50,415 bases of DNA, from contig JAFGRJ010000161.1 in assembly GCA_016935235.1 (NCBI GenBank), positions 1-50,415 of the forward strand, in the 5' to 3' direction. Positions 14,401 to 25,065 of the stretch are shown in pieces. Under the pieces are notes generated by a model. The model was not told where the DNA came from. It worked only from the letters and a program-made list of their open reading frames with translations, and searched no databases. The position numbers and the translations under genes are program-made. The stretch's first letter is position 1. Every line of letters starts with the position of its first letter. This stretch comes from Candidatus Cloacimonadota bacterium. GTDB taxonomy: Bacteria > Cloacimonadota > Cloacimonadia > Cloacimonadales > TCS61.

Positions 14401-14578
14401 TGTCATCCAGTGCCAGGTACAGGTTTATATGAGGTGAACTTGCTTCTTCCCGGATCACCTTTTCTGCGGTAATTTCGGTATTGTAACCTCCCCATCCATC
14501 CCCGCTTTGATTCCACATGGCCGCAATAGATGCAGCATATTTCTTTTCATATTCAACAATCTTGATATTATTGTTCAT
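11468..14578 (-). CDS. GNAT N-acetyltransferase domain (about 150 aa) fused to a roughly 880-aa uncharacterized domain
   Basis: The N-terminus carries GNAT motif A, 'YQGRKIGKALVLRCVQ'. I could not assign the remainder to any family I recognise; it has a notable 'SWWNQWGGGIF' segment. An SD-like GGAAG lies before the ATG. Confidence 0.6.
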   Translation of the reverse strand: MNNNIKIVEYEKKYAASIAAMWNQSGDGWGGYNTEITAEKVIREEASSPHINLYLALDDNMVVGYCKLSEYREDEGALYIDLINVLPSYQGRKIGKALVLRCVQRTVELGWPRLDLYTWTGNTKAVPMYKKCGFFWEDRDDTTHLMDFIPTVLNTEILRDYFRVMDWQKDSIREIAIEPDGIRENDSEYYRYLWQKDENRLEVDFCRYGRLIRRIECREFSVSVAVAKRKLIFGRHYYVNFQITNKMEVPIKFRIRGRDDRNISFPFQQEFSITGSRIITATFFLDKIDDEQSPWKTHPRVQAAVEINDRKVLMGIGIEPLFPLSLSCQGSLKKITPLSENGLLYLDVENNFAQNASFAFSLPRQELVEFAEYDFGVALLKNERKSVPLPFRFLRSGIINTELVIKADVQGEDTIRFSRTLSAIIHGKGQPYWGESEKKIVLGYGDYQLILNKRDFCNEGHFVKDDQQGEGVYFRPPQLGKPYSYEFSKVDASKANFTEERGAVLLKLDYHSERIQQVEFSLCFRLYSDGVLETWEEIENMAMNATDAELALCRYFNFSKSSFFLHYNNRLMEFSSDTQVNIDNIDYNLISENWLFTSGKKISVGLSWSAPDSIRFGDWAMYFEHSVNKNLHPENYRSPSVFFFLNRFTNCFDFRDYLRGEKVCEGEPHQCIEFKINGGNPFIKGDLAVQVVEHRQRKFGGEFCIQSSKGSFADAGGSLLDKENEKQVFLNLKEKNSSSSDILHLQASTALQKLYRNRAIFKIGRGEIKAEVSDQEGFKTLAVDNGTIRIKCAEAFLPGIFSLTYHQQEWLDTSFPRKICKSWWNQWGGGIFALPQEMRYQTLYAQPATSRLVKFADNLGNIWQGVEIEISIREHKKYKGLGWKSFYLLMPSCPVLLIDNCIIQNTGTCLQNWNFEINGFIRSANSLERSFFRSVNNRGDISDTYAGQEEVWLVQHSFAFGGMDRKELLQLYSREPHRSCEASTDKKTLSFWVMDKLSLPSTTEFMSKPLFLIFTPEFLSSEMLTDLSNIKLQRES

Positions 14579-14598
14579 TCTTCCTGCCTGGATAAGGT

Positions 14599-15630
14599 TT
14601 ATTTGAGATAATCCACAATAGCCTGCAGCCGTATCTGCCAGATCTCTTCCGTCAGGTAGTTTCTGAAACCCATTTCCTGATTTATCCTGAGCATGGGCCC
14701 ATTGGAAAGGGCATTCTCAGTTCTTACTATCCGTATGTAAGGTTTTTCCAGGATTAATTTCTTGATCATGACAGCTTTCAGCCATCTGCCCAGACCACGA
14801 TTGCGATACCGCTCTGCTACCCCCGTATCATCCTGATTCATCAGATCTCGCCTGTAGCCAGTATAGATCAAGGTGGTGAAACCAGCCAGTTCGCTATTGA
14901 CTTTGTTCCTTGCGACCAGCAACCAGTACTCCCAACCTTTGGCAAGTATGGCTCGAAGTGAATCCCTTAACCATTTTTCACTGATGTTTTCCCACCTGTA
15001 CTCCAGTTCATCCATAGGAACGGAATTCCAGAATTCATTATAAAGTTTCACATAGGCTGCAATCCTGTCCTCAGGATATTCATTCTTCCAGAATTCAAGC
15101 TGGAAATCCCGGTTAGCCTGCCTGCCCCTGGTTATCCAGTTGTCCATAAGTGTATAATCCAGATCAGCAATTTCCAGCTGATTGATATGGTTCGTCTGAC
15201 CTATCTGCGCTCCCATGCGATGGAGAAAAATGGATCCTGCTTTCGGTTTGTTTACTGTCATGAAATCAATTATTTCGATGCCATCATTCTGGATTTTTTC
15301 GACCACATGTTGTAACAATGCTTTGCCTATGCCTTTCTGCCGGTAATTTTTGCCCACCTGGATATTAACATAAGCAATATGCCTGTTTTCACCTTCTTTA
15401 TTGATGAAACAGCAGGCATCCCCCAGAATGTTTCCTTTCACCACTGCCAGCCAACGATACACCTTTTCTGAATCAGATACATTCCTCAAATATCTCACAA
15501 ACTGCTCATAAGTACGCGGCGGATCGTCTGAATAGGTCTCGCTCTGCAGCTCATTGAACAAGTCAAGATACTTCTTCAGTAATTGTTCATCCATAAAATC
15601 AGGATCTACAAGATCAATCGTGTAATTCAT
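14599..15630 (-). CDS. Tandem-GNAT acetyltransferase (two GNAT folds)
   Basis: Two acetyl-CoA-binding motif-A copies are present: 'YRQKGIGKALLQHVV' and 'YRNRGLGRWLKAVMI'. The start overlaps the hflX 3' end by 17 nt, and AGGAAGGAG lies before the ATG. Confidence 0.7.
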   Translation of the reverse strand: MNYTIDLVDPDFMDEQLLKKYLDLFNELQSETYSDDPPRTYEQFVRYLRNVSDSEKVYRWLAVVKGNILGDACCFINKEGENRHIAYVNIQVGKNYRQKGIGKALLQHVVEKIQNDGIEIIDFMTVNKPKAGSIFLHRMGAQIGQTNHINQLEIADLDYTLMDNWITRGRQANRDFQLEFWKNEYPEDRIAAYVKLYNEFWNSVPMDELEYRWENISEKWLRDSLRAILAKGWEYWLLVARNKVNSELAGFTTLIYTGYRRDLMNQDDTGVAERYRNRGLGRWLKAVMIKKLILEKPYIRIVRTENALSNGPMLRINQEMGFRNYLTEEIWQIRLQAIVDYLK

Positions 15631-16900
15631 TCTTTCTCCTTCCTACATCATACCGGGCATATCGATAATGGTCTGCCTGGTGCATTTCCGCTGTTATCAA
15701 AATCCCTTCCTCCCGATATTCTTCCCTTCTGATTCTGCAAATCTGATAAAGCTCGTTAACCAGATTCTGCTTTTCAAATGGGATCAGAAAATTATATACA
15801 GTATATTGATACATACTGTGATTTATTTCCTCATACAACCTTGCCAGATTCGTACCAAGTCGAGCTGATATCAGAATTCCTTCCGGGAAGCCTGCCTGCA
15901 ATGCCATACGCTGAGGTTCGTCCAGCTGGTCGATCTTGTTAAGGAGCAGAATTTTCTTCTGCTTTTCCGCTCCTATCTCCTGCAGCACCCTTTCTACTGC
16001 AGCTATCTGCTCCTTATAACGGGCACTACCAGCATCCACTATATGCAGCAGCAGATCGGCATCCAGAGTTTCCTGTAGAGTGGTATGGAAAGAAGCAATT
16101 AAATGATGTGGCAGATCTGCAATGAATCCGATCGTATCGGACAGAATAACATCCCGCCCTCCTGCCAGTTTCAATTTTCTTGTGGTTGAATCAAGAGTGG
16201 CGAACAATTTGTCCTCAACCAGAACATCAGCTGCCGTCAGGCTGTTGAAGAGCGTCGATTTCCCTGCATTAGTATAACCGATTATACACACTTTCCCAAT
16301 TTGCTGTCTTCTTTTTCTCTGAACGTTTTTCTGGATTTCGATCCTTTTCAACTGGTCTTGCAGATGTAATATTTCCTGTCTGATCTTTCTTTTATCGACT
16401 TCAAGCTGTTTTTCTCCCATGCCTCGGGCAGTTCCACTGCTGCCACTAACCTGACCCCGTTCCCTGTCCAGGTGTGACCACAGTTTCTTCAACCTGGGCA
16501 GCTGATAAACCAGCTCTGCCAATCTTACCTGCACTTTAGCCTCTTTAGTCCGGGCATGGCGGTGAAAGATATCAAGGATTATTTCCGTCCTGTCTGCTAC
16601 CTCAACTTCAAAAAAACTGGTGATGTTCCGCATCTGATTCGGTTGCAGTTCATTGGCAAAAATCAACATATCGATTTTGTCATATCCAGCCAGCACGGCA
16701 TGCAGAAAACCCTTACCGACATAGGTCGCAGCATCGATTTTTCTCCGGTTCTGGATATGATAACCAAGAACAGTTATCCCGGCTGTAGCAGCCAGGCGAG
16801 ACAATTCCTGCAGGGTAGATTCTGTCTTCAACTCATCATCCTGTTTCAGATTGACACCGATCAATACCGCTCGGGGCAGTTCCCGTTTGATTTCTATCAT
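15614..16900 (-). CDS. hflX: GTPase HflX
   Basis: Has the HflX N-terminal domain plus the G1 motif 'GYTNAGKST', 'DTIGF' and 'LLNKID'. The length (428 aa) is typical. Confidence 0.9.
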   Translation of the reverse strand: MIEIKRELPRAVLIGVNLKQDDELKTESTLQELSRLAATAGITVLGYHIQNRRKIDAATYVGKGFLHAVLAGYDKIDMLIFANELQPNQMRNITSFFEVEVADRTEIILDIFHRHARTKEAKVQVRLAELVYQLPRLKKLWSHLDRERGQVSGSSGTARGMGEKQLEVDKRKIRQEILHLQDQLKRIEIQKNVQRKRRQQIGKVCIIGYTNAGKSTLFNSLTAADVLVEDKLFATLDSTTRKLKLAGGRDVILSDTIGFIADLPHHLIASFHTTLQETLDADLLLHIVDAGSARYKEQIAAVERVLQEIGAEKQKKILLLNKIDQLDEPQRMALQAGFPEGILISARLGTNLARLYEEINHSMYQYTVYNFLIPFEKQNLVNELYQICRIRREEYREEGILITAEMHQADHYRYARYDVGRRKNELHD

Positions 16901-16969
16901 CTTTATTCCTTATCTTCACTATCCACAGGTACAGCAAAGGATCATGATCTGATCTAATGAGGCCTGCTT

Positions 16970-18868
16970 TCACTTCTTTATTATTTCTTCTTCACCCATC
17001 AGATATTCCCATTGCTCCATGAGCTGAGTGATCTGATCTTTTACTGTACATTTTCTTTCATACATTTTATTCAAATCTTCATAGTCTGATATTTCCAGCA
17101 TTTTTCTTTCTATTCCTTCCAACTCACTTTCCAGCCACGTTATATTTTCCTCGATGTTCCTGATCTTCTGTTTTAATCTGCGCAATTCCTGTTCATCCTG
17201 ACTCCTGATTATTGGCTTCAATCCTGCATCATCACTCTTATCACTACCGGAGACCTGCGACTTACAAAGTCGGTAATATTCATAATCACCAGGGTATTCC
17301 TGTAATTTACCTTCTTCCAGCTCCAGTATCTTTTCCGACAGTTTATTGATCAGATATCGATCGTGGGATATAAAAAGAACAGTACCCTTGAAATCAGCAA
17401 TCGCCTGTTCCAGCATCTCCCGGGATAAAATATCCAGGTGGTTGGTAGGCTCATCCAGCAGCAGAAAATTTACATTTCCATGCATAAGCAGGCTGAGCTG
17501 GAATCTGACCCGTTCTCCTCCAGAAAGTTCTCTGATCTTCTTGAAAACATCTTCGCCCAAGAACAGGAATCTGGCCAGGATAGAACGGACTTCACCCTGA
17601 GTGACAGGATATTCTGCCAGGAATGAATCCAGCAGTGATAAATTCTCATCCTGAAATTCCACCTCCTGCTGCAGATAACCAATCTTTACCGAAGGTCCGA
17701 TATAGATATCACCCGCATCTGGTTCAATTTCCTGATTGATTATCCTGAATAAAGTGGTTTTACCACAACCGTTCCGACCCAGCAAGACAACTCTCTGCCT
17801 GTAATGAAGGTTCAGGTCAATCGCCCGGAGAACTAGATTTTCACCATAGGATTTCTTTATTTTCTGCAGACGGACGACTATTTTCCCTGATCTCCCAGTA
17901 TTGCTGAAGTCAGCCCTGATCTTCCTGTTCCGGGCTGGTTTTTTTACTTTTTCTAATTCCTCTATCTGCTTCTCACACCTTTTCGCTTTGGCCATATGAG
18001 CTGAATTATCCGAATTGATATTTCCCCATGTGCGATAACGTTCCGCCGCTTCCTTAAGGGATTTGATTCTCTTGGCAGCCTGTTTGAAAATATCCATCTC
18101 TGTCTGGCGCCGGCGTCTGTTTTCCTCAAGATAAAAAGAATAATTTCCGGCAAATTCCTCAATTTCGCCTGCTTTCAGTTCCATGATCCTTGAAACAATC
18201 TGATCCAGAAAATACCGGTCATGAGATATGATGAGAACGCTGCTTTTAGTTTCCTTCAGATAGGATTCCAGCCATTCGATGGACTCCAGATCCAGATGGT
18301 TGGTTGGTTCATCCAGCAACAGCAGGTCAGGTTTCTGCAATAGCATTCTCGCAAGCAGGACTCTGGTCTTCTCGCCACCGCTCAGATCGCTGAACCTGCA
18401 TTCTGACAGGTTATTAATCTTAAGACCTGTACAAATCTTCTCAATTTCCAGATCAACACTGTAACCACCTTTATTCTCAAACTCAAGCTGCAGATCTCCA
18501 TATTTTTTTATGGCTTTATCCAGTTCCTGATCAGACAGCAGATGAAATTTTTTCTCCAGGTCCTTCAGCTTTTGATCAATTTTGTTAAGATGGGTAAAAC
18601 TCTCCCGGAGACATTGCCCTGCTGTTGTATCGCGAGTAAAAACAGGTATCTGATCCAGATAGGCTATTTTAACATCCTGGCGGTAACTGACAGTGCCCGA
18701 ACTGGTCGGTTCTATCCCGGCAATGATACGGAAAAGGGTGGTTTTCCCACTGCCATTAATACCGATAAGACCAGCTTTCTCTCCTTTCTGCACACGCAAT
18801 GACAAACCATTGAGCACATTTGCGCCACCATAATTTTTTGTTATCTCATTCAAACTTACTTCAACCAT
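16970..18868 (-). CDS. ABC-F family ATPase (two NBDs, inter-domain linker, C-terminal coiled coil; Uup-like architecture)
   Basis: Two Walker A motifs ('GINGSGKTT', 'GRNGCGKTT'), two signature motifs ('LSGGEK', 'LSGGER') and no transmembrane segments. The start is set at ATG 18868 (MVEVSLNE), which follows GAGG; the start at 18892 in the ORF track is probably too far upstream. Confidence 0.85.
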   Translation of the reverse strand: MVEVSLNEITKNYGGANVLNGLSLRVQKGEKAGLIGINGSGKTTLFRIIAGIEPTSSGTVSYRQDVKIAYLDQIPVFTRDTTAGQCLRESFTHLNKIDQKLKDLEKKFHLLSDQELDKAIKKYGDLQLEFENKGGYSVDLEIEKICTGLKINNLSECRFSDLSGGEKTRVLLARMLLQKPDLLLLDEPTNHLDLESIEWLESYLKETKSSVLIISHDRYFLDQIVSRIMELKAGEIEEFAGNYSFYLEENRRRRQTEMDIFKQAAKRIKSLKEAAERYRTWGNINSDNSAHMAKAKRCEKQIEELEKVKKPARNRKIRADFSNTGRSGKIVVRLQKIKKSYGENLVLRAIDLNLHYRQRVVLLGRNGCGKTTLFRIINQEIEPDAGDIYIGPSVKIGYLQQEVEFQDENLSLLDSFLAEYPVTQGEVRSILARFLFLGEDVFKKIRELSGGERVRFQLSLLMHGNVNFLLLDEPTNHLDILSREMLEQAIADFKGTVLFISHDRYLINKLSEKILELEEGKLQEYPGDYEYYRLCKSQVSGSDKSDDAGLKPIIRSQDEQELRRLKQKIRNIEENITWLESELEGIERKMLEISDYEDLNKMYERKCTVKDQITQLMEQWEYLMGEEEIIKK

Positions 18869-18892
18869 CGTTACCTCATGAGTAAAACACAA

Positions 18893-20719
18893 TCAGGAAT
18901 TTAACACCACGGTTTCGCGCTCTTCCAGAAACTGATTGGTGTAAAGGCTGTAATAATGACCTTTACGGTTGATCAGCTCATGATGGTTACCGCTCTCGAT
19001 TATCTCGCCTTTACGAATAACCAGAATCCGGTCCGCAGACCTTATCGTAGATAACCTGTGAGCAACAAGGAAACTGGTCCGGTTGCGCAATATCTTCTGG
19101 ATGGCATCCTGGATCTTCTTCTCCGTTTCCGTATCAACAGAAGAAGTCGCTTCATCAAGCACGAAGATGCGAGGATCAGCCAGAACTGCCCGGGCAAAGG
19201 AAATCAATTGTTTCTGCCCGGTGGACAGCAGGCTGCCACCTTCTCCTACTTCGGACAGATAGCCCTTCTCCATGGTTGTGATGAATTCATGAGCATTCAC
19301 CAGCTTCGCTGCTTCTTCTATCTTGGCATCATCCACCTCCAGATTACCGTAGGCAATATTATCCCGAACTGTACCACTGAACAGATGAGGACTTTGCAAT
19401 ACATACCCTAGATTAGATTGTAGCCAGAGCTGAGACCTTTGCCGATAATCGCAGCCATCGATCAAGATCTCCCCTGCATCAGGTTCATAGAAACGACAGG
19501 TAAGATTTACGATCGTGCTCTTGCCCGAACCGGTTTCACCTATCAGGGCTATGGTCTCACCTGCTTTGATGTCCAGATTGAAATTCTGCAAAACCTTTTC
19601 CCCATTTTTGTAGGCAAAGCTTACATTGCGAAAGCTGATATCACCTTTGATAACTGCCTTCTCCTTTTTTCCAGTTGCAATGACATTACCATAAGTCTCT
19701 AAAATCTCAGGGGAATCAGTAATTTGCGGGATCTCCTCCAGCAGTGAAAAGATCCTCTCTGCAGACGCCTGAGCATTCTGCAGTTCAGCAAAGATACGTG
19801 CCATTTCATGAAGAGGTTCGAAAAACTGAACCGTATAGGAAATAAACGCCACCAGTGTACCGTAAGATAAAAGGTCAAGAACCACCTTTTCCCCACCCAG
19901 CCAGATAGCCAGTCCCGTACCAATACTGCCCAGACTCAATACTACTGGCAGATAGATTGCCGAAAAAACCGCAGCTTTAACAGAAGAGGAATACATATTA
20001 CGGCTCAGGTTCTGAAATTCTCTCAGATTTTCTTTTTCCCGCACCAGGGTTTTTGTTGTCTTGGCTCCTGAAATACCCTCATTGAAAGCACCCGTAATTT
20101 TGGAATTGGTTTTTCTTACGATACGGTAAGCACCGAGAATTTTTTTCTGAAAAAACAGGCTTAAAATCACCAGCACTGGAACCACAGTGAGCGTTATCAA
20201 GGCAAGTTTCCAGTTCAGGATGAGGATAATGACAGCGATCAAAATCATCAACGATAAACCCCAGACCATATCTACCAGCCCCCAGGATATGAAGCTGCCC
20301 AAACGCAGACTATCTGAAGTCATCCTGGCCATCATCCAGCCTACCGGCGTGCGGTCATAATAGCTGAAGGAAAGTTCCTGCAGATGCTGAAAGGTTTTCT
20401 TACGGATATCATAGGTTAGATCCATTTCTATCCTGCCAGCAATGGCTATGAAAAAGTAAATATTCCCTGATTGAATAAGGATCAACATGAAGTAAACCAG
20501 GGTAAAGAGACCCAATCCCCTGCTTGTTGCCGGAATGATAAAGTGATCGACAGCATATCTGCTCATAAGCGGGAACAGGGCATCCACTCCTGCCAGGGCT
20601 ATCATGAATAAAGCCAGAACCAGTAACCGTTTCCGATAGGGTTTAAGGAATACCCCCAGTTTTTTCCAGAGATTGGGATCAAATCTCTTTGTATAATCTT
20701 TTTCCTCAAAAGCGATCAT
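18893..20719 (-). CDS. ABC exporter half-transporter (TMD-NBD fusion, MdlB/type-IV exporter-like)
   Basis: Six N-terminal transmembrane helices, Walker A 'GETGSGKST', signature 'LSTGQKQ' and Walker B 'IFVLDEATS'. AAGGAG lies before the ATG. Confidence 0.85.
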   Translation of the reverse strand: MIAFEEKDYTKRFDPNLWKKLGVFLKPYRKRLLVLALFMIALAGVDALFPLMSRYAVDHFIIPATSRGLGLFTLVYFMLILIQSGNIYFFIAIAGRIEMDLTYDIRKKTFQHLQELSFSYYDRTPVGWMMARMTSDSLRLGSFISWGLVDMVWGLSLMILIAVIILILNWKLALITLTVVPVLVILSLFFQKKILGAYRIVRKTNSKITGAFNEGISGAKTTKTLVREKENLREFQNLSRNMYSSSVKAAVFSAIYLPVVLSLGSIGTGLAIWLGGEKVVLDLLSYGTLVAFISYTVQFFEPLHEMARIFAELQNAQASAERIFSLLEEIPQITDSPEILETYGNVIATGKKEKAVIKGDISFRNVSFAYKNGEKVLQNFNLDIKAGETIALIGETGSGKSTIVNLTCRFYEPDAGEILIDGCDYRQRSQLWLQSNLGYVLQSPHLFSGTVRDNIAYGNLEVDDAKIEEAAKLVNAHEFITTMEKGYLSEVGEGGSLLSTGQKQLISFARAVLADPRIFVLDEATSSVDTETEKKIQDAIQKILRNRTSFLVAHRLSTIRSADRILVIRKGEIIESGNHHELINRKGHYYSLYTNQFLEERETVVLNS

Positions 20720-20740
20720 TATTAACTCCTTAAAACAAGC

Positions 20741-22606
20741 TCAACTGATCTGTATTTCTTTCCCGTTATTGACATTCAGCTCGGCATTCCGATCATTAAT
20801 TTCACTGGCAAGTTCCTCTTCCAGTTCGTTCTGGATTGACCAGATTCTCTTGTACATCCCATCCTTATGCAGCAATTCAAGATGCGAACCCTGCTCAACT
20901 ATCATGCCATTATCCAGAACCAGAATCCTGTCCGCTTCCGCCAGGGTATTCAGGCGATGGGAAATGATGAAGGTCGTGGCGCGTTGCGGCCTCTTCTGTA
21001 ATTCCAGCCTTATAGTGGCATCAGTTCTGGTGTCCACAGCGCTCAGAGAATCGTCGAATATCAGGATAGGATTATTTCTGATCACAGCCCGGGCAATGGC
21101 AATTCTCTGTTTCTGACCTCCGGAAAGTGTTATTCCTCTTTCGCCAACCAGTGTGTCATAACCTTTCTCAAAGTTCAGGATAACATCATCAATAGCCGCT
21201 GCCCTGGCTGCATCACGAATATCTGCTTCCGTATAGTTCTCCACTGCCAGTCCGATGTTTTCCTGCAGGGTTTTTGAAAACAAAAATGGTTCCTGCAGGA
21301 CAATACCTATATTTTTGCGCAGCACCTTCTTATCATATTCTCTGATATCCCTGCCATCAATCAGAATGGCTCCTTCCTGCACATCATAGAGCCTCGGCAG
21401 CAGATGGACCAGGGTACTTTTACCAGCCCCGGTTCGACCCAGGATAGCTATGGTCTCACCGCTACTCACCCTGAAAGAAATATTCTTGAGCACAGGTTTG
21501 TCATGCTCATAACCGAAAGTCACATTCCTGAATTCTATATTACCCTGCAGGTAATTTTGAGCATTACCAGTACCTGAATCCTCAACTGGTTCATTGAGAA
21601 TCTGTTGTATCCGGTCCACTGAAACCAGTGCCTTCCCCATATCGGTCAATACCCTTCCCATCTGACGCACAGGCCAGAGCAGCATACCAACATAAGAGGA
21701 AAAGGCAAGCATAGTCCCCAGACTGATCATCCCGATTGCCGACCAATATGTTCCCAGGATCATTACCACCGCAATCTGCAACAGGCTCATGAAATCCGAT
21801 ACCGACCAGTACCAGGCCAGCAGTCGTATCAATCGGAAGGTAAGATCGCGATATTCACAATTCCTGATATCAAATTTTCTGATCTCGTAAGACTGCCGGG
21901 CAAATGCACGTACTACCCGCACACCTGTTAGATTTTCCTGCAAGACTGTGGACATTCTGCCTTCTGATTCATCGGAAGACTGAAAAGCTTTCTTTACCTT
22001 CAGGAAAAAAATTACGGCAAAAATGAAGATTGGTGGTATCAACGCCATGGATACCAGAGTCATCGTCAGATGCATGGGTAACATGAAGGATAAGGCAAAT
22101 CCTACCATGAACAGGGCTCTGCCAACTTCCACGAGCTGAACCGCCAGAAATCTTCTGATAGTCTCCACATCGGAAGTACAGCGCTGAATCAGGTCACCTG
22201 TCCTGGCATTGACATGATATTTGAAAGGTAAATACTGCAGGTGATCATAGACTTTATCCCTGATTCTCTGTACAATAGCTTCTGAAGCCACAGCGGACAA
22301 TTTGCCCTTGAAAAAGAGAAATAATCCCTGTGCCAGGGTAAGGCAAACCAGAATCAAACCGAAGATCCACAGACATTGGATCAAGGATGTTCTTCCACCC
22401 AGCTGCTGGAATAATCCGGAGAATACAGGCTGTAACCAGCCACCAACATCAAGCGGTTTATCGCCAATAACAGAATCAACTGTTATTCTCAGCAGCAGTG
22501 GCCAGATAAATCTAATGAAAGTCGCTATTCCTATAGAGGAAATGGAAAAAATATACAAACTCCTATAACCTTTCATGAAATTCCAGAGTATTTTCATTTT
22601 ATTCAT
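20741..22606 (-). CDS. ABC exporter half-transporter (TMD-NBD fusion, MdlA-like), probable heterodimer partner of the next gene
   Basis: N-terminal TMD, Walker A 'GRTGAGKST', signature 'LSGGQKQR' and Walker B 'ILIFDDSLS'. GAGG lies 6 nt before the ATG. Confidence 0.85.
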   Translation of the reverse strand: MNKMKILWNFMKGYRSLYIFSISSIGIATFIRFIWPLLLRITVDSVIGDKPLDVGGWLQPVFSGLFQQLGGRTSLIQCLWIFGLILVCLTLAQGLFLFFKGKLSAVASEAIVQRIRDKVYDHLQYLPFKYHVNARTGDLIQRCTSDVETIRRFLAVQLVEVGRALFMVGFALSFMLPMHLTMTLVSMALIPPIFIFAVIFFLKVKKAFQSSDESEGRMSTVLQENLTGVRVVRAFARQSYEIRKFDIRNCEYRDLTFRLIRLLAWYWSVSDFMSLLQIAVVMILGTYWSAIGMISLGTMLAFSSYVGMLLWPVRQMGRVLTDMGKALVSVDRIQQILNEPVEDSGTGNAQNYLQGNIEFRNVTFGYEHDKPVLKNISFRVSSGETIAILGRTGAGKSTLVHLLPRLYDVQEGAILIDGRDIREYDKKVLRKNIGIVLQEPFLFSKTLQENIGLAVENYTEADIRDAARAAAIDDVILNFEKGYDTLVGERGITLSGGQKQRIAIARAVIRNNPILIFDDSLSAVDTRTDATIRLELQKRPQRATTFIISHRLNTLAEADRILVLDNGMIVEQGSHLELLHKDGMYKRIWSIQNELEEELASEINDRNAELNVNNGKEIQIS

Positions 22607-22712
22607 CAGTACCTCGGTTCTTTATGCAATTTTCTATCTTCTGTAATATTTCGGAAAATAAACGCATATTTAGAAAAAATTCCATAACCAATCTGCTTTT
22701 TTGCCTTTCTGA

Positions 22713-22799
22713 TTACGTAAGGATTTTTTCGGATCTCCTCTCTATCCGGAAAGGCCAGGAAAAACATAATTTCAATAATACCAGTAAAAACCGCAGCAT
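22713..22799 (-). CDS. Candidate 28-aa small ORF (MLRFLLVLLKLCFSWPFRIERRSEKILT) in the leader, downstream of the terminator
   Basis: A perfect AAGGAGG (22811..22805) lies 5 nt before ATG 22799. The N-terminal half is hydrophobic and the tail is basic. It is the only SD-supported part of the 75-aa ORF in the track (22713..22940), which otherwise reads through a terminator hairpin. Confidence 0.35.
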   Translation of the reverse strand: MLRFLLVLLKLCFSWPFRIERRSEKILT

Positions 22800-22823
22800 T
22801 TTTGCCTCCTTTCCGTATCTGTT

Positions 22824-22865
22824 AAAAAAAAAGCTCAAGGTCGGGCATTTGCCCACCTTGAGCTT
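22824..22865 (-). terminator. Rho-independent terminator (15-bp stem, one bulge, 4-nt loop, U-run)
   Basis: The minus strand reads AAGCUCAAGGUGGGCA-AAU-GCCCGACCUUGAGCUU followed by U7-9 (A-run at 22824-22832 on the plus strand). It lies 218 nt upstream of ATG 22606. Confidence 0.7.
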
Positions 22866-22998
22866 TTCTATTGATACAAAATTGGTGGGACCAGCCCTTA
22901 TAGATACTGATCCCACCAAATCTATTATTTCTGAACTCACTCCTTCCGGATGAGTCAGCTTTTATAAATTCGCGGTTGTTTAAGCGGGACCAGTTGGG

Positions 22999-23037
22999 TC
23001 AGATAACAGTGCCCTGTGGTATCCGAAATAAGAACAT
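22999..23037 (-). CDS. Candidate 12-aa leader peptide (MFLFRIPQGTVI)
   Basis: A perfect AAGGAGG (23052..23046) lies 8 nt before ATG 23037. The stop codon UGA (23001..22999) abuts the first of the alternative-pairing RNA segments. Confidence 0.4.
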   Translation of the reverse strand: MFLFRIPQGTVI

Positions 23038-23377
23038 TATATCAGCCTCCTTTCTTAAAATTTACTCTTCATCTTAAACAACTTCAGCTTCGCTAATTTG
23101 AAAACGATATTTCAGTCAAGTTTTTTTTCCTGAAATAATTTTCCGAAATAACCTTTACCTGAAATCCACACTAACTAAGCAGATTATGTTCCATAATCAT
23201 AAGTTGTTTTATCATAATATAAATATATACTGATGGGAAATTTTTTACTGTCCGTTTTTGGCACTGCTTCCGTGCGAATATGGACAGGGATGAGATGTAT
23301 TTAGCATACTGATTCATTTAGCGGTTAAAAATATATTATGAAAAAAACTTGCACTTCATCAAAAGACAGAAAAAATG

Positions 23378-23386
23378 TGTTATAAT
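23378..23386 (+). promoter_or_regulatory. Candidate extended -10 promoter element (TGTTATAAT) for the K+ channel operon
   Basis: A TGnTATAAT match lies 28 nt upstream of the TTG start at 23414. The nearest TTGCAC (23349-23354) is 26 nt away and too far to act as a -35 element. Confidence 0.3.
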
Positions 23387-23413
23387 AATATTATCGAAGA
23401 AAAGGCCATGTAA

Positions 23414-24568
23414 TTGAAAAAATTTATCAGAAGAAAAACCCTGGTTTTTCGTAAAAATAAGAATACCCTTTTATTACTGAAGAACCTTTTTTTCATAATC
23501 CTGATAATAATGGCTGGTGCGGTTGGTGTACTGTTCTTTGAATACCAGACCGGGGGTATAAAGAATCTATTCGATGCAATCTGGTGGTCACTGGTAACAA
23601 TAACCACAGTAGGTTATGGTGACCTTTATCCCATAACTTTCTGGGGACGCATCATTGGAATTGTCTTCATCTTACTGGGCTTCATTGTTTTTTCCACATT
23701 CACAGCTTTCATCGCCAGTAATTTTATCGACAAGAAAATCAAGGAGAGAAAAGGATTGAATACCATAAAGGATAGAAATCATATCATGATCTGCGGCTGG
23801 AATAATTCTGCCCGCAAGATCCTGGATTTTACCAAGAAGTACGAAGATCTGCGGAATATTAAGGTGGTTCTGGTCAATGAGCTGGATGAGGGTGATATAT
23901 CTTCCGTGCAGAATAACTATCCTGATCTGGAGATAGGATTCATCAAGGGGGATATTACCAATCTGGACGTTCTGCTGAAGGGTAATATTACCGAAGCCAA
24001 ACATATTATCCTGCTGTACGATGAAAGCAAACCGCAGTCTGCTCCTTCGGATGAAAGAACCATTATCGCTGCCCATAACCTCTATGATCTCAATCTGAAA
24101 GGCATGATTAATATCCAGTTGAAAGACAAGAAATACCTGCCCAACATCCAGAGAACAAAAGTCCAGAATGTGGTCATATTTGATGATGTGGGAGGGAATC
24201 TACTCGCTAATGCCACATTGAATCCTTCCGTGCCGGACTTTGTTCAGGAAGCCCTGAAACTCAAAGATAACAAGGGCTTCAGGGAAATAGATATTCCTGA
24301 TGAATTTATTGGTAAAAATTATGGAGAGCTGTTCAATCATTTCAAAGAAAACAAAAATCTGGTTCTACTGGGAATCAGTTCTTCTCTCCCTGAATTCTCC
24401 ATCTCTTCTATTCTCTCCGATGATACTTCCTCTATCGACCGTTTTATCAAACGTCAGTTCGAATTATCCGGCAAGAAAATGGAAGTTCGGGAGTCACAAA
24501 CCCGCATCAAGATTAAACCTGAAGATTCCTATTTGATTCAGGATACCGACAAGGCGATTGTGCTGTGA
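23414..24568 (+). CDS. Potassium channel, 2TM pore domain plus RCK/TrkA-N domain
   Basis: Has the selectivity filter 'TTVGYGD', flanking transmembrane helices and a Rossmann-like RCK start 'IMICGWNNSARKI'. TTG is the only in-frame start that retains TM1. An ATG-TAA start-stop pair lies immediately upstream (23408-23413). Confidence 0.8.
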   Translation: MKKFIRRKTLVFRKNKNTLLLLKNLFFIILIIMAGAVGVLFFEYQTGGIKNLFDAIWWSLVTITTVGYGDLYPITFWGRIIGIVFILLGFIVFSTFTAFIASNFIDKKIKERKGLNTIKDRNHIMICGWNNSARKILDFTKKYEDLRNIKVVLVNELDEGDISSVQNNYPDLEIGFIKGDITNLDVLLKGNITEAKHIILLYDESKPQSAPSDERTIIAAHNLYDLNLKGMINIQLKDKKYLPNIQRTKVQNVVIFDDVGGNLLANATLNPSVPDFVQEALKLKDNKGFREIDIPDEFIGKNYGELFNHFKENKNLVLLGISSSLPEFSISSILSDDTSSIDRFIKRQFELSGKKMEVRESQTRIKIKPEDSYLIQDTDKAIVL

Positions 24569-24576
24569 GGTGAAAT

Positions 24577-25065
24577 GTGGATCTGGAATTTTTAAGAAAA
24601 GTATCTCTGTTCAGCAAACTCAGTACTGATGAATTAAACCTGGTAGCCCCCTGTCTGCATACCTGCCGTTTCAAGGAAGGTGAAAAAATCATTTCTGACC
24701 GGGAAGAAAGTGATAAGCTGTTTATCCTGCATCTGGGGAAGGTAGTGGTGTCAAAGAAAATGACCATGGTAGATCAGGAGGAGGAGCTGGATAAGACACT
24801 TACTGTCCTTTCTGCAGAAAATTTCATGTTCTTCGGAGAAATAGGTTTACTGGGTTTTCGCAAGAGGACTGCCAACGTTGTAGCTAAAACTGATTGTGAG
24901 TTATATTCCCTCAATCAGAAGGATTTCATGACACTAAGCGAAAAATACCCCGGTATTGGATTCAAGATCCTGCTGGAAATATCGCGGCAACTTTCACGAA
25001 TTCTGGAAAAGACTAACGAAGATGTTCTTAAACTTACCACTGCCCTGATTTATGCCCTGAAATAA
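24577..25065 (+). CDS. Stand-alone cyclic-nucleotide-binding (CAP/CNBD-fold) protein
   Basis: Has the phosphate-binding-cassette-like 'FFGEIGLL...RTANVVA'. It is 162 aa with no DNA-binding or transmembrane extension. The GTG start is preceded by GAGGTG, which overlaps the channel stop codon. Confidence 0.75.
   Translation: MDLEFLRKVSLFSKLSTDELNLVAPCLHTCRFKEGEKIISDREESDKLFILHLGKVVVSKKMTMVDQEEELDKTLTVLSAENFMFFGEIGLLGFRKRTANVVAKTDCELYSLNQKDFMTLSEKYPGIGFKILLEISRQLSRILEKTNEDVLKLTTALIYALK

What the first reader, a model, noticed from the sequence alone, without database searches (positions are those of the whole stretch)
22700..23120. Attenuator-like leader: two mini-ORFs with perfect SD sites, duplicated complementary segments and a strong terminator upstream of the ABC/ABC-F/HflX string
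The following elements are read on the minus strand.
1. AAGGAGG-N8-AUG opens a 12-codon ORF (MFLFRIPQGTVI, 23037..22999).
2. The segment CUGGUCCC occurs twice: at 22993..22986, just after the uORF stop, and at 22894..22887.
3. GGUGGG also occurs twice, at 22917..22912 and 22857..22852.
4. The middle pair of segments forms a 13-bp hairpin (UUGGUGGGAUCAG-N12-CUGGUCCCACCAA).
5. The last GGUGGG lies in the 5' arm of a 15-bp terminator followed by a U-run (22865..22824).

The first CUGGUCCC(GC) can instead pair with GGUGGGAUCAG (about 10 bp). That would free CCCACC to pair with the terminator arm. This is the classic mutually exclusive helix logic of ribosome-stalling attenuators such as erm, cat and vmlR/ABC-F leaders. 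The proposed antiterminator is only 6 bp, so the energetics must be computed.

After the terminator, a second perfect AAGGAGG-N5-AUG opens a 28-codon hydrophobic and basic ORF (22799..22713). Both peptides contain F-R-I. An extra GGAA-tetraloop hairpin sits at 22958..22931. This 0.8-kb gap is the largest non-coding stretch in the window.
Basis: partly seen in the sequence, partly recalled or inferred. Interest (0 to 1): 0.7.

Follow-up and report, generated by a model that had tools for sequence, protein, structure and literature searches.

The report
Leader-peptide transcription attenuator before efflux operon
The 0.5-kb stretch upstream of an ABC-exporter/ABC-F/HflX operon in this Cloacimonadota genome is a conserved, previously undescribed leader: a tiny translated ORF followed by RNA segments that can pair in two mutually exclusive ways, which most likely switches the operon on when ribosomes stall, the same trick Gram-positive bacteria use for antibiotic-resistance genes.

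Summary
The leader is conserved. I recovered 23 distinct versions in 10 lineages of Cloacimonadota, always upstream of and co-oriented with the same heterodimeric ABC exporter.

The conserved parts are:
- an A-tract plus TTGAC promoter box and an AGGAGG Shine-Dalgarno (SD);
- a 12-15-codon uORF (R-x-P-Q-G-[T/S]-x-[A/V/I]-stop, kept through synonymous codons);
- segment 1, starting 0-6 nt after the stop;
- segments 2 and 3 and the strong terminator T2.

Two helices that exclude each other both hold across the family. Helix 1:2 is 100% paired and helix 2:3 is 98.9% paired, each with compensatory changes. The two states differ by only 1.5-6 kcal/mol. A nascent transcript forms 1:2 first. A ribosome on the stop codon destroys 1:2.

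The 2:3 hairpin is followed by a U-rich tract (UUUUUGUAU in most lineages), so it looks like a first terminator. The weak link is escape from T2, because the seg3:T2 pairing in the window is no better than in shuffled sequence. Rfam has no match.

Verdict: a new member of the known class of ribosome-mediated attenuators (bmrB-bmrCD, vmlR, hflXr). The inducers are untested. Moderate interest.

The parts
23114..23126 (-). Promoter-like box: A-tract followed by TTGACT (23119..23114)
   Evidence: AAAAAACTTGAC(A/T/G) lies 62-83 nt upstream of the uORF AUG in all full-length leaders. No TTGAC occurs between T2 and the ABC start in 11 of the 12 lineage representatives where both are held. The -10 element and the transcription start are not determined.
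23046..23052 (-). Shine-Dalgarno AAGGAGG of uORF1
   Evidence: (A)GGAGG lies 5-8 nt before the AUG in all but one of the distinct leaders listed; L049 has AAAGGAGC.
22999..23037 (-). uORF1, 12 codons plus stop: MFLFRIPQGTVI*. The conserved motif is R-x-P-Q-G-[T/S]-x-[A/V/I]-stop.
   Evidence: Homologous 12-15-codon uORFs occur in 10 lineages. The motif is kept through synonymous codons: Arg CGG/AGA/AGG, Pro CCA/CCG/CCU, Gln CAG/CAA, Gly GGC/GGU. An internal hairpin (about 23026..22999) also forms.
22984..22994 (-). Segment 1 (ACUGGUCCCGC), starting 4 nt after the stop codon. It is the 5' strand of antiterminator helix 1:2.
   Evidence: The 9 core pairs with segment 2 are 100% paired in 21 sequences. 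Slid controls give 16-54%. Compensatory changes occur at 2-3 positions. The duplex energy is -18.6 kcal/mol. Masking by a ribosome with the stop codon in its A site removes the helix.
22931..22958 (-). Central GGAA-loop hairpin. It is the apex of the long 1:2 rod in the read-through fold.
   Evidence: A hairpin occupies this position in most lineages with unrelated sequence; the L037 group and L049 carry no inner hairpin here. With 1:2 enforced, the window folds as 11 bp + 9 bp + this hairpin.
22907..22919 (-). Segment 2 (UUGGUGGGAUCAG). It pairs either with segment 1 or with segment 3.
   Evidence: The core GGG(A/G)U is invariant in all leaders.
22882..22894 (-). Segment 3 (CUGGUCCCACCAA). 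It is the 3' strand of hairpin 2:3 (-22.4 kcal/mol). Its CCCACC is also complementary to the terminator's GGUGGG.
   Evidence: Helix 2:3 is 98.9% paired, with compensatory changes at 2 positions. In the nascent fold, CCCACC pairs with GGUGGG.
22873..22881 (-). U-rich box (UUUUGUAUC) directly after hairpin 2:3. It is the candidate U-tract of a first terminator (T1) and the partner of the A-rich base of T2.
   Evidence: UUUUUGUAU(C) is found in 7 of 10 lineages. In relatives it forms helix P4, which overlaps the base of T2.
22824..22867 (-). Main intrinsic terminator T2: AAAAGCUCAAGGUGGGC / GCCCGACCUUGAGCUUUU plus a U9 run.
   Evidence: Energy -27 to -29 kcal/mol. A 13-bp consensus stem has many compensatory pairs. 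The top of the 5' arm keeps GUGGG in 9 of 11 lineages.
22805..22811 (-). Shine-Dalgarno AAGGAGG of uORF2
22713..22799 (-). uORF2, 28 codons: MLRFLLVLLKLCFSWPFRIERRSEKILT*
   Evidence: The motif C-[F/Y]-[S/N]-W-[P/S]-[F/Y]-R is conserved with synonymous changes in L038, L076 and L077. It is absent from most other lineages. No Pfam match. Its role is unknown.
15614..22606 (-). Regulated operon: ABC exporter 1 (22606..20741), ABC exporter 2 (20719..18893), ABC-F (18892..16970), HflX (16900..15614)
   Evidence: ABC exporter 1 follows the leader on the same strand in all 19 testable metagenome hits.

Best explanation
This is a ribosome-position-sensing transcription attenuator that controls a translation-stress or drug-response operon. 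The operon encodes a BmrCD-type heterodimeric ABC exporter, an ABC-F protein and HflX.

Transcription starts at the conserved A-tract/TTGAC promoter. The very strong SD loads ribosomes onto the 12-codon uORF1.

**OFF (normal translation).** The ribosome runs to the stop codon. Its footprint covers segment 1, which begins 4 nt downstream. Segment 2 therefore pairs with segment 3. That hairpin is followed by a U-rich tract and acts as a first terminator. It also sequesters CCCACC, so the strong terminator T2 forms as a fail-safe. Transcripts would end near 22875 or 22826.

**ON (ribosome held upstream).** The ribosome is held at or before the conserved R-x-P-Q-G codons, for example by a ribosome-targeting antibiotic. 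Its leading edge then stops at about the stop codon and segment 1 stays free. Helix 1:2 forms as soon as segment 2 is made. This builds a long rod with the GGAA hairpin at its tip. Segment 3 is left single-stranded. It pairs with the GGUGGG and AAAA parts of the T2 5' arm before the 3' arm is transcribed. RNA polymerase reads through into uORF2 and the operon.

**Shown here:** conservation of all parts, covariation of both competing helices, near-equal energies of the two states, and the footprint geometry.

**Inferred:** that the uORF is translated, that stalling occurs and where, which inducers act, and that the seg3:T2 pairing suffices to defeat T2.
For: **Family and linkage**
1. The leader family is real and linked in cis to the ABC exporter. 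Of 10 resolved homologous loci fetched through the protein, 7 carry the leader and an eighth, truncated locus (L077) is consistent with it.
2. A DNA pattern taken only from segments 2 and 3 and the U-box gave 22 metagenome hits. All 19 testable hits have the ABC exporter downstream on the same strand. The same pattern gave 0 hits in IMG/VR.

**uORF1 behaves as a coding sequence**
3. The SD and AUG are conserved (all but L049 keep GGAGG) and the length is 12-15 codons. R-x-P-Q-G is kept through synonymous codons, including Arg CGG versus AGA/AGG.

**The switch**
4. Helix 1:2 is 100% paired in 21 sequences. Slid controls give 16-54%. C:G changes to U:A and A:U changes to G:C.
5. Helix 2:3 is 98.9% paired with compensatory changes. 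T2 shows strong covariation.
6. In stepwise folding, 1:2 is the minimum-free-energy (MFE) fold in 10 of 10 lineages once segment 2 is out. It drops to 0-5 of 9 pairs when a ribosome sits with the stop codon in its A site. Helix 2:3 takes over once segment 3 exists.
7. The two states are nearly isoenergetic: -69.8 versus -71.3 kcal/mol in the window.

**Terminators**
8. Hairpin 2:3 (-16 to -24 kcal/mol) is followed by UUUUUGUAU in 7 of 10 lineages.
9. In nascent folds, segment 3 pairs with the T2 5' arm in 8 of 10 lineages. GUGGG at the top of that arm is kept while the lower stem varies.

**Context**
10. The ABC start lies only 49-51 nt after T2 in several lineages, with no promoter box between. 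Expression must therefore pass through T2.
11. The gene content matches operons known to be controlled this way: bmrB-bmrCD (PMC4191407), vmlR (PMC9226507) and hflXr (PMC6310831).
Against: - There is no experimental evidence of translation, stalling, premature 3' ends or induction.
- At equilibrium the full-length leader always folds as 2:3 plus T2. Even with 1:2 enforced, T2 still forms. Read-through therefore depends on kinetics that I cannot compute.
- In the window, the seg3:T2 antiterminator is -10 kcal/mol, which is no better than shuffled upstream sequence (z about +0.6). In the L037 group it is only about 4 bp.
- The P-Q-G codons also form the top of an RNA hairpin inside the uORF. Part of the apparent peptide conservation could therefore be selection on the RNA.
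- Lineage L049 has the RNA switch but no PQG motif.
- The retrieval pattern fixed parts of segments 2 and 3, so conservation of the 2:3 core is partly due to ascertainment.
- The ABC-F protein reaches only the generic NCBIfam model, not any named resistance subfamily. ABC-F and HflX are absent from some loci that carry the leader.
Confidence: 0.62

Rival explanations
1. The switch is the same but the ribosome logic differs. Segment 1 is normally locked in a small local hairpin (P1) whose 5' arm lies at or just after the stop codon. Only a ribosome arrested on the last codons or the stop codon melts P1 and frees segment 1. This resembles ermC, or the stop-codon stall of MsrDL.
For: A local hairpin that sequesters part of segment 1 exists in most lineages. 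It is 79.5% paired, with 3 pairs showing compensatory change. The block G-[T/S]-x-[A/V/I]-stop is conserved right up to the stop codon. With this logic, absence of translation gives the OFF state, as in the equilibrium fold.
Against: Helix 1:2 out-competes P1 as soon as segment 2 exists, in 10 of 10 lineages without any ribosome. The P1 loop exposes the 5' half of segment 1 as a toehold. In L052 and L076 the 1:2 helix begins 0-1 nt after the stop codon, so a ribosome on the last codons would cover much of it. In the window P1 is only 4 bp.
Confidence: 0.15
2. The promoter-uORF1-T2 unit is an independent small gene, either a small RNA or a 12-aa peptide. T2 is simply its terminator, and the ABC operon is expressed separately.
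For: T2 is very strong (-17 to -29 kcal/mol with a long U-run) and always forms at equilibrium. The unit has its own conserved promoter box.
Against: The unit is always immediately upstream of and co-oriented with the ABC exporter. In several lineages only 49-51 nt separate T2 from the ABC AUG, with no promoter box. Two mutually exclusive, covarying helices placed against the stop codon have no role in a plain small-RNA gene. A different uORF-plus-terminator leader replaces this one in another clade of the same operon.
Confidence: 0.08
3. The leader is a riboswitch or a protein-binding RNA switch. A ligand or protein stabilises 1:2 or 2:3, and the uORF is incidental or only tunes the response.
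For: Several single-stranded stretches are highly conserved (AAUAUAUA, UUUUUGUAUCUA). The two folds are nearly isoenergetic. Some related loci encode a GyrI-like/Cass2 small-molecule-binding protein just upstream.
Against: There is no Rfam match, even at E <= 10. The conserved unpaired boxes are missing or altered in the window, L038 and L076. The SD, AUG, ORF length, synonymous-codon pattern and fixed stop-to-segment-1 distance are all conserved and would be left unexplained.
Confidence: 0.08
4. It is an attenuator that senses an amino acid or charged tRNA, like the trp, his or leu leaders, rather than translation inhibitors.
For: The architecture is the same in general terms: a short leader ORF, alternative helices and a terminator.
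Against: There is no run of any one codon in uORF1. The downstream genes are exporters and ribosome-rescue factors, not biosynthetic genes.
Confidence: 0.03

Closest known systems
bmrB-bmrCD leader of Bacillus subtilis (ribosome-mediated transcription attenuation; PMC4191407)
   Same: The regulated genes are the same type: a heterodimeric ABC exporter with one degenerate ATP site. [quoted passage not shown] In bmrB, slower leader translation caused by ribosome-targeting drugs gives read-through.
   Different: bmrB is a 53-aa ORF with the terminator inside its coding region. Here the uORF has 12-15 codons and all switch helices lie downstream of its stop codon. There are two terminator-like hairpins in series. 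There is no sequence similarity. The phylum is different (Cloacimonadota, not Bacillota).
vmlR leader of B. subtilis (uORF(MIN), AAT/AT/terminator; PMC9226507)
   Same: A very short uORF with its own SD. Stalling prevents an anti-antiterminator, so an antiterminator forms. The regulated gene is an ABC-F. Most relatives of the window's uORF begin with M-I-N or M-I-R, like uORF(MIN).
   Different: The vmlR uORF is a tripeptide and stalling is at initiation. Here a longer peptide has a conserved C-terminal motif. The ABC-F is the third gene of the operon and is absent from some loci. No NusG pause element has been examined here.
rli80-hflXr leader of Listeria monocytogenes (PMC6310831)
   Same: A 14-aa uORF, alternative RNA structures and a premature terminator control an HflX paralogue. 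The system works together with an ABC-F (lmo0919).
   Different: The rli80 peptide carries the macrolide-type RLR motif, whereas the motif here is R-x-P-Q-G. HflX is the fourth gene here. There is no sequence similarity.
E. coli trp-type attenuators
   Same: A chain of overlapping segments in which the position of the leader ribosome decides which helices form. A ribosome that reaches the stop codon favours the terminator.
   Different: There are no regulatory codon runs. The chain has one more link (1:2, 2:3, 3:T5', T5':T3'). As a result, absence of translation is predicted to favour the first-formed 1:2 helix rather than termination.

Membership tests
Ribosome-mediated (leader-peptide) transcription attenuators of drug-response genes (bmrB, vmlR, rli80/hflXr, msrD type) | A short upstream ORF with its own ribosome-binding site that is translated | tested here: inconclusive
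   The SD, AUG, 12-15-codon length and peptide motif are conserved through synonymous codons in 10 lineages. Translation itself cannot be shown with these tools. Part of the motif also forms an RNA hairpin.
Ribosome-mediated (leader-peptide) transcription attenuators of drug-response genes | An intrinsic terminator between the uORF and the regulated gene | tested here: met
   T2 is -17 to -29 kcal/mol with a U5-U10 run in every lineage, and its stem covaries. A second terminator-like hairpin (2:3 plus UUUUUGUAU) is present in most lineages.
Ribosome-mediated (leader-peptide) transcription attenuators of drug-response genes | Mutually exclusive alternative helices, one of which precludes the terminator | tested here: met
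   Helices 1:2 and 2:3 share segment 2. Both are 99-100% paired with compensatory changes. The two states differ by 1.5-6 kcal/mol. This holds for the first terminator (2:3).
Ribosome-mediated (leader-peptide) transcription attenuators of drug-response genes | An antiterminator that competes with the main terminator T2 | tested here: inconclusive
   Segment 3 pairs with the T2 5' arm in nascent folds of 8 of 10 lineages (-10 to -18.5 kcal/mol). It is no better than shuffles in the window, and z is only -2.4 to -3.1 in three lineages.
Ribosome-mediated (leader-peptide) transcription attenuators of drug-response genes | The footprint of the leader ribosome overlaps a switch segment | tested here: met
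   The 9-nt core of segment 1 starts 2-6 nt after the stop codon in all lineages, and the extended helix starts at 0-4 nt. Masking through stop+12 removes helix 1:2.
Ribosome-mediated (leader-peptide) transcription attenuators of drug-response genes | Read-through induced by ribosome-targeting antibiotics or translation stress | not testable with these tools
   This needs reporter assays, Term-seq or toeprinting.
Known curated RNA families (Rfam 15), including known leaders and riboswitches | A covariance-model match at or near the gathering score | tested here: not met
   There are 0 hits at gathering score in the whole window. The best hit at E <= 10 is 23 bits against a threshold of 59 and is terminator-like.
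erm/cat-type translation attenuation | [quoted passage not shown] | tested here: not met
   The switch ends in hairpins followed by U-runs. The region between uORF2 and the ABC start has no unusual structure (z = -0.9).
Amino-acid biosynthetic attenuators (trp, his, leu, thr, pheA leaders) | Runs of codons for the regulating amino acid in the leader ORF, and biosynthetic genes downstream | tested here: not met
   There are no codon runs. The downstream genes are exporters, an ABC-F and HflX.

The most novel reading that the evidence does not exclude
R-x-P-Q-G-[T/S]-x-x-stop may be a new nascent-peptide arrest module. It would sense a specific class of ribosome-targeting compound exactly four codons before the stop. 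It would drive a two-terminator relay. In the window's clade it would be followed by one or more further conserved sensor uORFs (the C-F-S-W-P-F-R family and others). The operon would then integrate several translation-stress signals in series. This would occur in an uncultured, non-Gram-positive phylum where no antibiotic-sensing leader has been described.
Probability: 0.25. Interest if true: 0.65.

Novelty: new member of a known kind. Interest (0 to 1): 0.42.

Why it matters
If correct, antibiotic- or translation-stress-sensing leader peptides extend beyond Firmicutes and Actinobacteria into Cloacimonadota, an uncultured phylum common in anaerobic digesters and sediments.

It would provide a new conserved peptide motif (R-x-P-Q-G) to test for drug-dependent ribosome arrest.

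It would mark a BmrCD-like exporter, an ABC-F, HflX and sometimes an RsgA-like GTPase as one co-regulated translation-stress regulon.

It also offers a compact, nearly isoenergetic RNA switch with two terminators in series. That could serve as a reporter for environmental translation inhibitors.

It is not surprising in principle, because the logic is textbook attenuation.

Tried and rejected
- **GTDB genome scan with the ABC protein.** It returned only homologues of 53% identity or less, mostly from Firmicutes. They have no nucleotide similarity to the leader. Some carry unrelated uORF-plus-terminator leaders.
- **Exact-protein look-up of the window's ABC gene.** Not on record.
- **MAFFT on the full leaders with L076 added (A2) and on spliced segments (A3).** Both misaligned segment 1 of L049 or L076. 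I used alignment A1 and a motif-anchored register analysis instead.
- **Shuffle control for the seg3:T2 antiterminator.** It does not separate the window from chance, so I do not claim that link as shown.
- **Equilibrium folding with ribosome masks on the full-length leader.** T2 always forms, so the switch cannot be demonstrated thermodynamically.
- **Fold of the region from uORF2 to the ABC start.** No significant structure, so there is no evidence for a second attenuator or RBS sequestration in the window.
- **Pfam on the uORF2 peptides.** Nothing found.
- **IMG/VR scan with the leader pattern.** 0 hits; useful only as a specificity control.
- **Promoter/terminator scan tool.** It missed both terminators because of their bulges, and it did not list the conserved TTGAC box among its promoter-like sites.
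- **Small translated ORF across segment 2 to T2.** The 75-aa GTG ORF at 22713..22940 is only the uORF2 frame extended upstream, and it is not conserved.
Full report
**Observation**

- AAGGAGG, 8 nt, AUG, then the 12-codon uORF1 MFLFRIPQGTVI* at 23037..22999.
- CUGGUCCC at 22993..22986 and at 22894..22887.
- GGUGGG at 22917..22912 and at 22857..22852.
- The 13-bp hairpin at 22919..22882.
- The bulged 15-bp terminator with a U9 run at 22865..22824.
- AAGGAGG, 5 nt, AUG, then the 28-codon uORF2 at 22799..22713.
- The GGAA-loop hairpin at 22958..22931.

The gap 22607..23413 (807 nt) is the largest ORF-free stretch in the window. The region 23060..22810 folds at -91.3 kcal/mol against -58.3 +/- 4.7 for dinucleotide shuffles, z = -7.1.

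**Context**

The downstream genes on the same strand are as follows.
- Two half-size type-I ABC exporters. The first has a degenerate Walker B (IFDDS). The second has a canonical one (VLDEA) but no LSGGQ. This is the BmrCD/LmrCD kind of heterodimer with one degenerate ATP site.
- An ABC-F protein: NF000355 'ribosomal protection-like', 471 bits against a cutoff of 380. It reaches no named resistance subfamily.
- HflX: TIGR03156, 396 bits against a cutoff of 217.
- GNAT acetyltransferases.

The organism is a Candidatus Cloacimonetes/Cloacimonadota MAG. The ABC protein is identical to an NCBI entry of that name on a 50,415-nt contig.

**Relatives**

A GTDB scan returned only distant homologues, mostly from Firmicutes, with no similarity to the leader. 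Protein homologues of 64-69% identity are all Cloacimonadota. I fetched the contigs of 11 of them.
- Seven carry a recognisably homologous leader.
- One contig starts inside the terminator and is consistent with the leader.
- Two carry a different leader: a 33-35-aa uORF ending TARPRF[I/M]* followed by a terminator.
- One has an assembly gap.

A DNA pattern built only from segment 2, segment 3 and the following U-rich box gave these results.
- One match in the window and none in 100 shuffles.
- 22 metagenome contigs.
- No hit in IMG/VR.

All 19 metagenome hits with enough downstream sequence have the ABC exporter on the same strand, 142-1632 nt downstream. In total there are 23 distinct leaders in 10 lineages.

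**Conserved anatomy**

These features are shared across the family.
- An A-tract plus TTGAC box 62-83 nt before the AUG.
- AGGAGG 5-8 nt before the AUG.
- A 12-15-codon uORF.
- Segment 1 starting 2-6 nt after the stop (0-4 nt for the extended helix).
- One or two hairpins of variable sequence in most lineages.
- Segment 2, GG(U/C)GGG(A/G)UYRG.
- Segment 3, ending CYC(A/G)CYA.
- A U-rich box, UUUUUGUAUCUA in most lineages.
- A strong terminator, T2.

The leader peptides are:

| Lineage | uORF1 peptide |
|---|---|
| window | MFLFRIPQGTVI |
| L038 | MIIRIFLVPQGTSI |
| L037 | MTNFKLIRTPQGSSV |
| L045 | MIRYFKNRVPQGTSA |
| L056 | MINIVLNRKPQGWFA |
| L076 | MINLLRIPAVGTV |
| L052 | MNRLFRLPAGGSVI |
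| L065 | MIRQNTLPGGSF |
| L041 | MIRLVLFRKPDGGNF |
| L049 | MNIIKFRLAVSTA |

The motif R-x-P-Q-G-[T/S]-x-[A/V/I]-stop is kept through synonymous codons: Arg CGG/AGA/AGG, Pro CCA/CCG/CCU, Gln CAG/CAA, Gly GGC/GGU. This argues for selection on the peptide.

One caveat applies. The Pro and Gly codons also form the top of a hairpin inside the uORF. On A1 that hairpin is 80% paired, with 5 pairs showing compensatory change. Selection at the RNA level therefore contributes or cannot be excluded.

**The switch**

Helix 1:2 (segment 1 with GGGAUYRGU of segment 2) is paired in 100% of 188 cells in 21 sequences. Slid controls give 16-54%. Compensatory changes are C:G to U:A and A:U to G:C. In a motif-anchored register that includes L076, 9 of 10 positions are paired in all 16 distinct helices, and only 9 of 5000 permutations reach the observed total. 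Segment 1 was not in the retrieval pattern, so this test is independent.

Helix 2:3 is 98.9% paired with compensatory changes at two positions. Its core was partly fixed by the pattern. RNAalifold recovers 2:3 and a 13-bp T2 with many compensatory pairs.

Energetics:

| Element or state | Energy (kcal/mol) |
|---|---|
| 1:2 duplex | -11.6 to -19 |
| 2:3 hairpin | -16 to -24 |
| T2 | -17 to -29 |
| Window, free MFE (nt after stop to T2 3' end) | -71.3 |
| Window, helix 1:2 enforced | -69.8 |

Across four lineages the state with 1:2 enforced is only 1.5-6 kcal/mol above the free MFE. In the window, enforcing 1:2 gives a long rod: 11 bp, then 9 bp, then the GGAA hairpin at the tip.

**Order of folding and the ribosome**

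For a transcript that ends just after segment 2, the MFE fold contains the full 1:2 helix in 10 of 10 lineages. A ribosome mask through stop+12, which corresponds to the stop codon in the A site, reduces it to 0-5 of 9 pairs. A mask ending at stop+3 to stop+6 leaves it almost fully intact (7-9 of 9 pairs). Once segment 3 is present, 2:3 becomes the MFE in most lineages. The full-length equilibrium fold is always 2:3 plus T2.

The simplest reading follows.
- A ribosome that reaches the stop codon occludes segment 1. Helix 2:3 then forms and transcription terminates.
- A ribosome held at or before the conserved PQG codons leaves segment 1 free. The first-formed 1:2 helix then persists.

A variant model is ranked second. 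In it a small local hairpin (P1; 79.5% paired) must be melted by a ribosome on the last codons. I rank it lower for three reasons.
- Helix 1:2 out-competes P1 without any ribosome.
- The P1 loop exposes a toehold.
- In L052 and L076 the helix starts right at the stop codon.

**Two terminators**

Hairpin 2:3 is followed by UUUUUGUAU in 7 of 10 lineages, by AUUUUGUAU in the window, by UUAUUGUAU in L038 and by UUAUCAUAU in L076. It therefore has the form of an intrinsic terminator (T1), and helix 1:2 directly prevents it.

T2 is universal and must be passed for expression. In several lineages the ABC AUG lies only 49-51 nt after T2 and there is no TTGAC box in between.

The proposed escape is that free segment 3 pairs with the 5' arm of T2. 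In nascent folds that run from the 2:3 loop to the T2 loop, this pairing forms in 8 of 10 lineages. In most lineages the U-box then forms a second helix with the A/G-rich base of T2. The composite is -10 to -18.5 kcal/mol and covers 9-12 nt of the arm. GUGGG at the top of the 5' arm is retained in 9 of 11 lineages while the lower stem varies.

The shuffle control is weak. In the window z is about +0.6, and only three lineages reach z of -2.4 to -3.1. T2 still forms at equilibrium even with 1:2 enforced. This step is inferred, not shown.

**uORF2 and other small ORFs**

The window's uORF2 has homologues with a C-[F/Y]-[S/N]-W-[P/S]-[F/Y]-R core and synonymous variation in L038, L076 and L077. 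It is missing from most lineages and has no Pfam match. The RNA between it and the ABC start has no unusual structure (z = -0.9). Other lineages carry different conserved 24-aa ORFs at this position. Their role is open. The F-R-I shared by the window's two peptides is not conserved.

**Comparison with known systems**

Rfam 15 has no match, either at gathering score in the whole window or at E <= 10 in the region. No paper in the searched library links Cloacimonadota to leader peptides or attenuators.

Functionally the closest systems are these.
- bmrB-bmrCD, which regulates the same exporter type. Its 53-aa leader has the terminator inside the ORF (PMC4191407).
- vmlR, with uORF(MIN) and an AAT/AT/terminator arrangement (PMC9226507).
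- rli80-hflXr, with a 14-aa uORF carrying an RLR motif (PMC6310831).

The present leader shares the logic but not the sequence. It differs in having all switch helices downstream of the stop codon, a one-link-longer relay, and two terminator-like hairpins in series.

**Verdict**

This is a new, conserved member of the known class of ribosome-mediated transcription attenuators, found in a phylum where none has been described. The existence of the switch between 1:2 and 2:3 is well supported. Translation of the uORF, the stall site, the inducers and the bypass of T2 remain inferences.

Noticed in passing
window 22713..22799 (-); L038, L076, L077; L066 6788..7000 (-); L041: Several families of conserved 24-28-aa ORFs with strong SDs lie between terminator T2 and the ABC genes. 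One family contains ..K[L/F]CFSWPFR.. (window, L038, L076, L077). A second is MFEFIITMTESSFTFSYRDIFGIF / MQEFMITMTESCFIFSCGDYYGIL. A third is ..NMIC[G/S][F/Y]YRDEWMLY. They could be further sensor uORFs in series or small membrane peptides.
   Followed up: partly
L043 2735..2836 and L075 about 2760..2867: In another clade the same ABC/ABC-F operon is preceded by a different leader. It has a 33-35-aa uORF (MIRLIPDYTTSVPTIQIVCFLVNSTTARPRFMQ / MINLIGLMPNDTTGLSKNQIVCFSVVSQTARPRFI) followed by a terminator. The ending R-P-R-F contains a +x+ motif of the kind seen in macrolide-sensing leaders.
   Followed up: partly
L066 5603..6724 (-), L076 1862..3004, L077 404..1534, also L064: An RsgA-family GTPase (373-380 aa, PF03193 E = 1e-40) is inserted between the leader and the ABC pair in some lineages. 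This adds another ribosome-associated factor to the regulon. It is absent from the window.
   Followed up: partly
L037 2151..2375, L040, L041 1305..2047, L045 1764..2548, L074: Upstream of the leader, other lineages carry a conserved 74-aa ORF of unknown function. In L041 and L045 there is also a GyrI-like/Cass2 small-molecule-binding protein. The window has about 300 nt of non-coding sequence there instead (23120..23413).
   Followed up: no
window 23414..25065 (+): A divergently transcribed K+ channel with an RCK domain and a cNMP-binding protein are syntenic with the leader in several relatives (L037, L038, L040, L074). The neighbourhood is therefore old.
   Followed up: no
window 23091..23126 (-), and the same region of all leaders: The conserved promoter box is an A-tract plus TTGAC. 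A TAAAAT/TAAAGA-like element follows after only about 13 nt in many lineages, not the usual 16-18 nt. The promoter architecture of this phylum may differ from the sigma-70 consensus.
   Followed up: no
window 11468..15630 (-): Two GNAT-domain proteins follow HflX, and the first overlaps it by 17 nt. They are 343 aa and 1036 aa, and the larger has an N-terminal GNAT domain. They may belong to the same operon, for example as drug- or ribosome-acetylating enzymes.
   Followed up: no
uORF1 start in most relatives: Most leader peptides begin M-I-N or M-I-R, which resembles the Met-Ile-Asn uORF of the B. subtilis vmlR leader. The window's own peptide begins M-F-L.
   Followed up: no
L004 about 1650..1770; L002, L003 and L005 just before the ABC start: Some homologous ABC pairs in Firmicutes also have an SD-uORF (for example MKMRKVNYKLNMTGLLRA) and a terminator-like hairpin upstream. 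Leader control of this exporter family may be widespread, with non-homologous leaders.
   Followed up: partly
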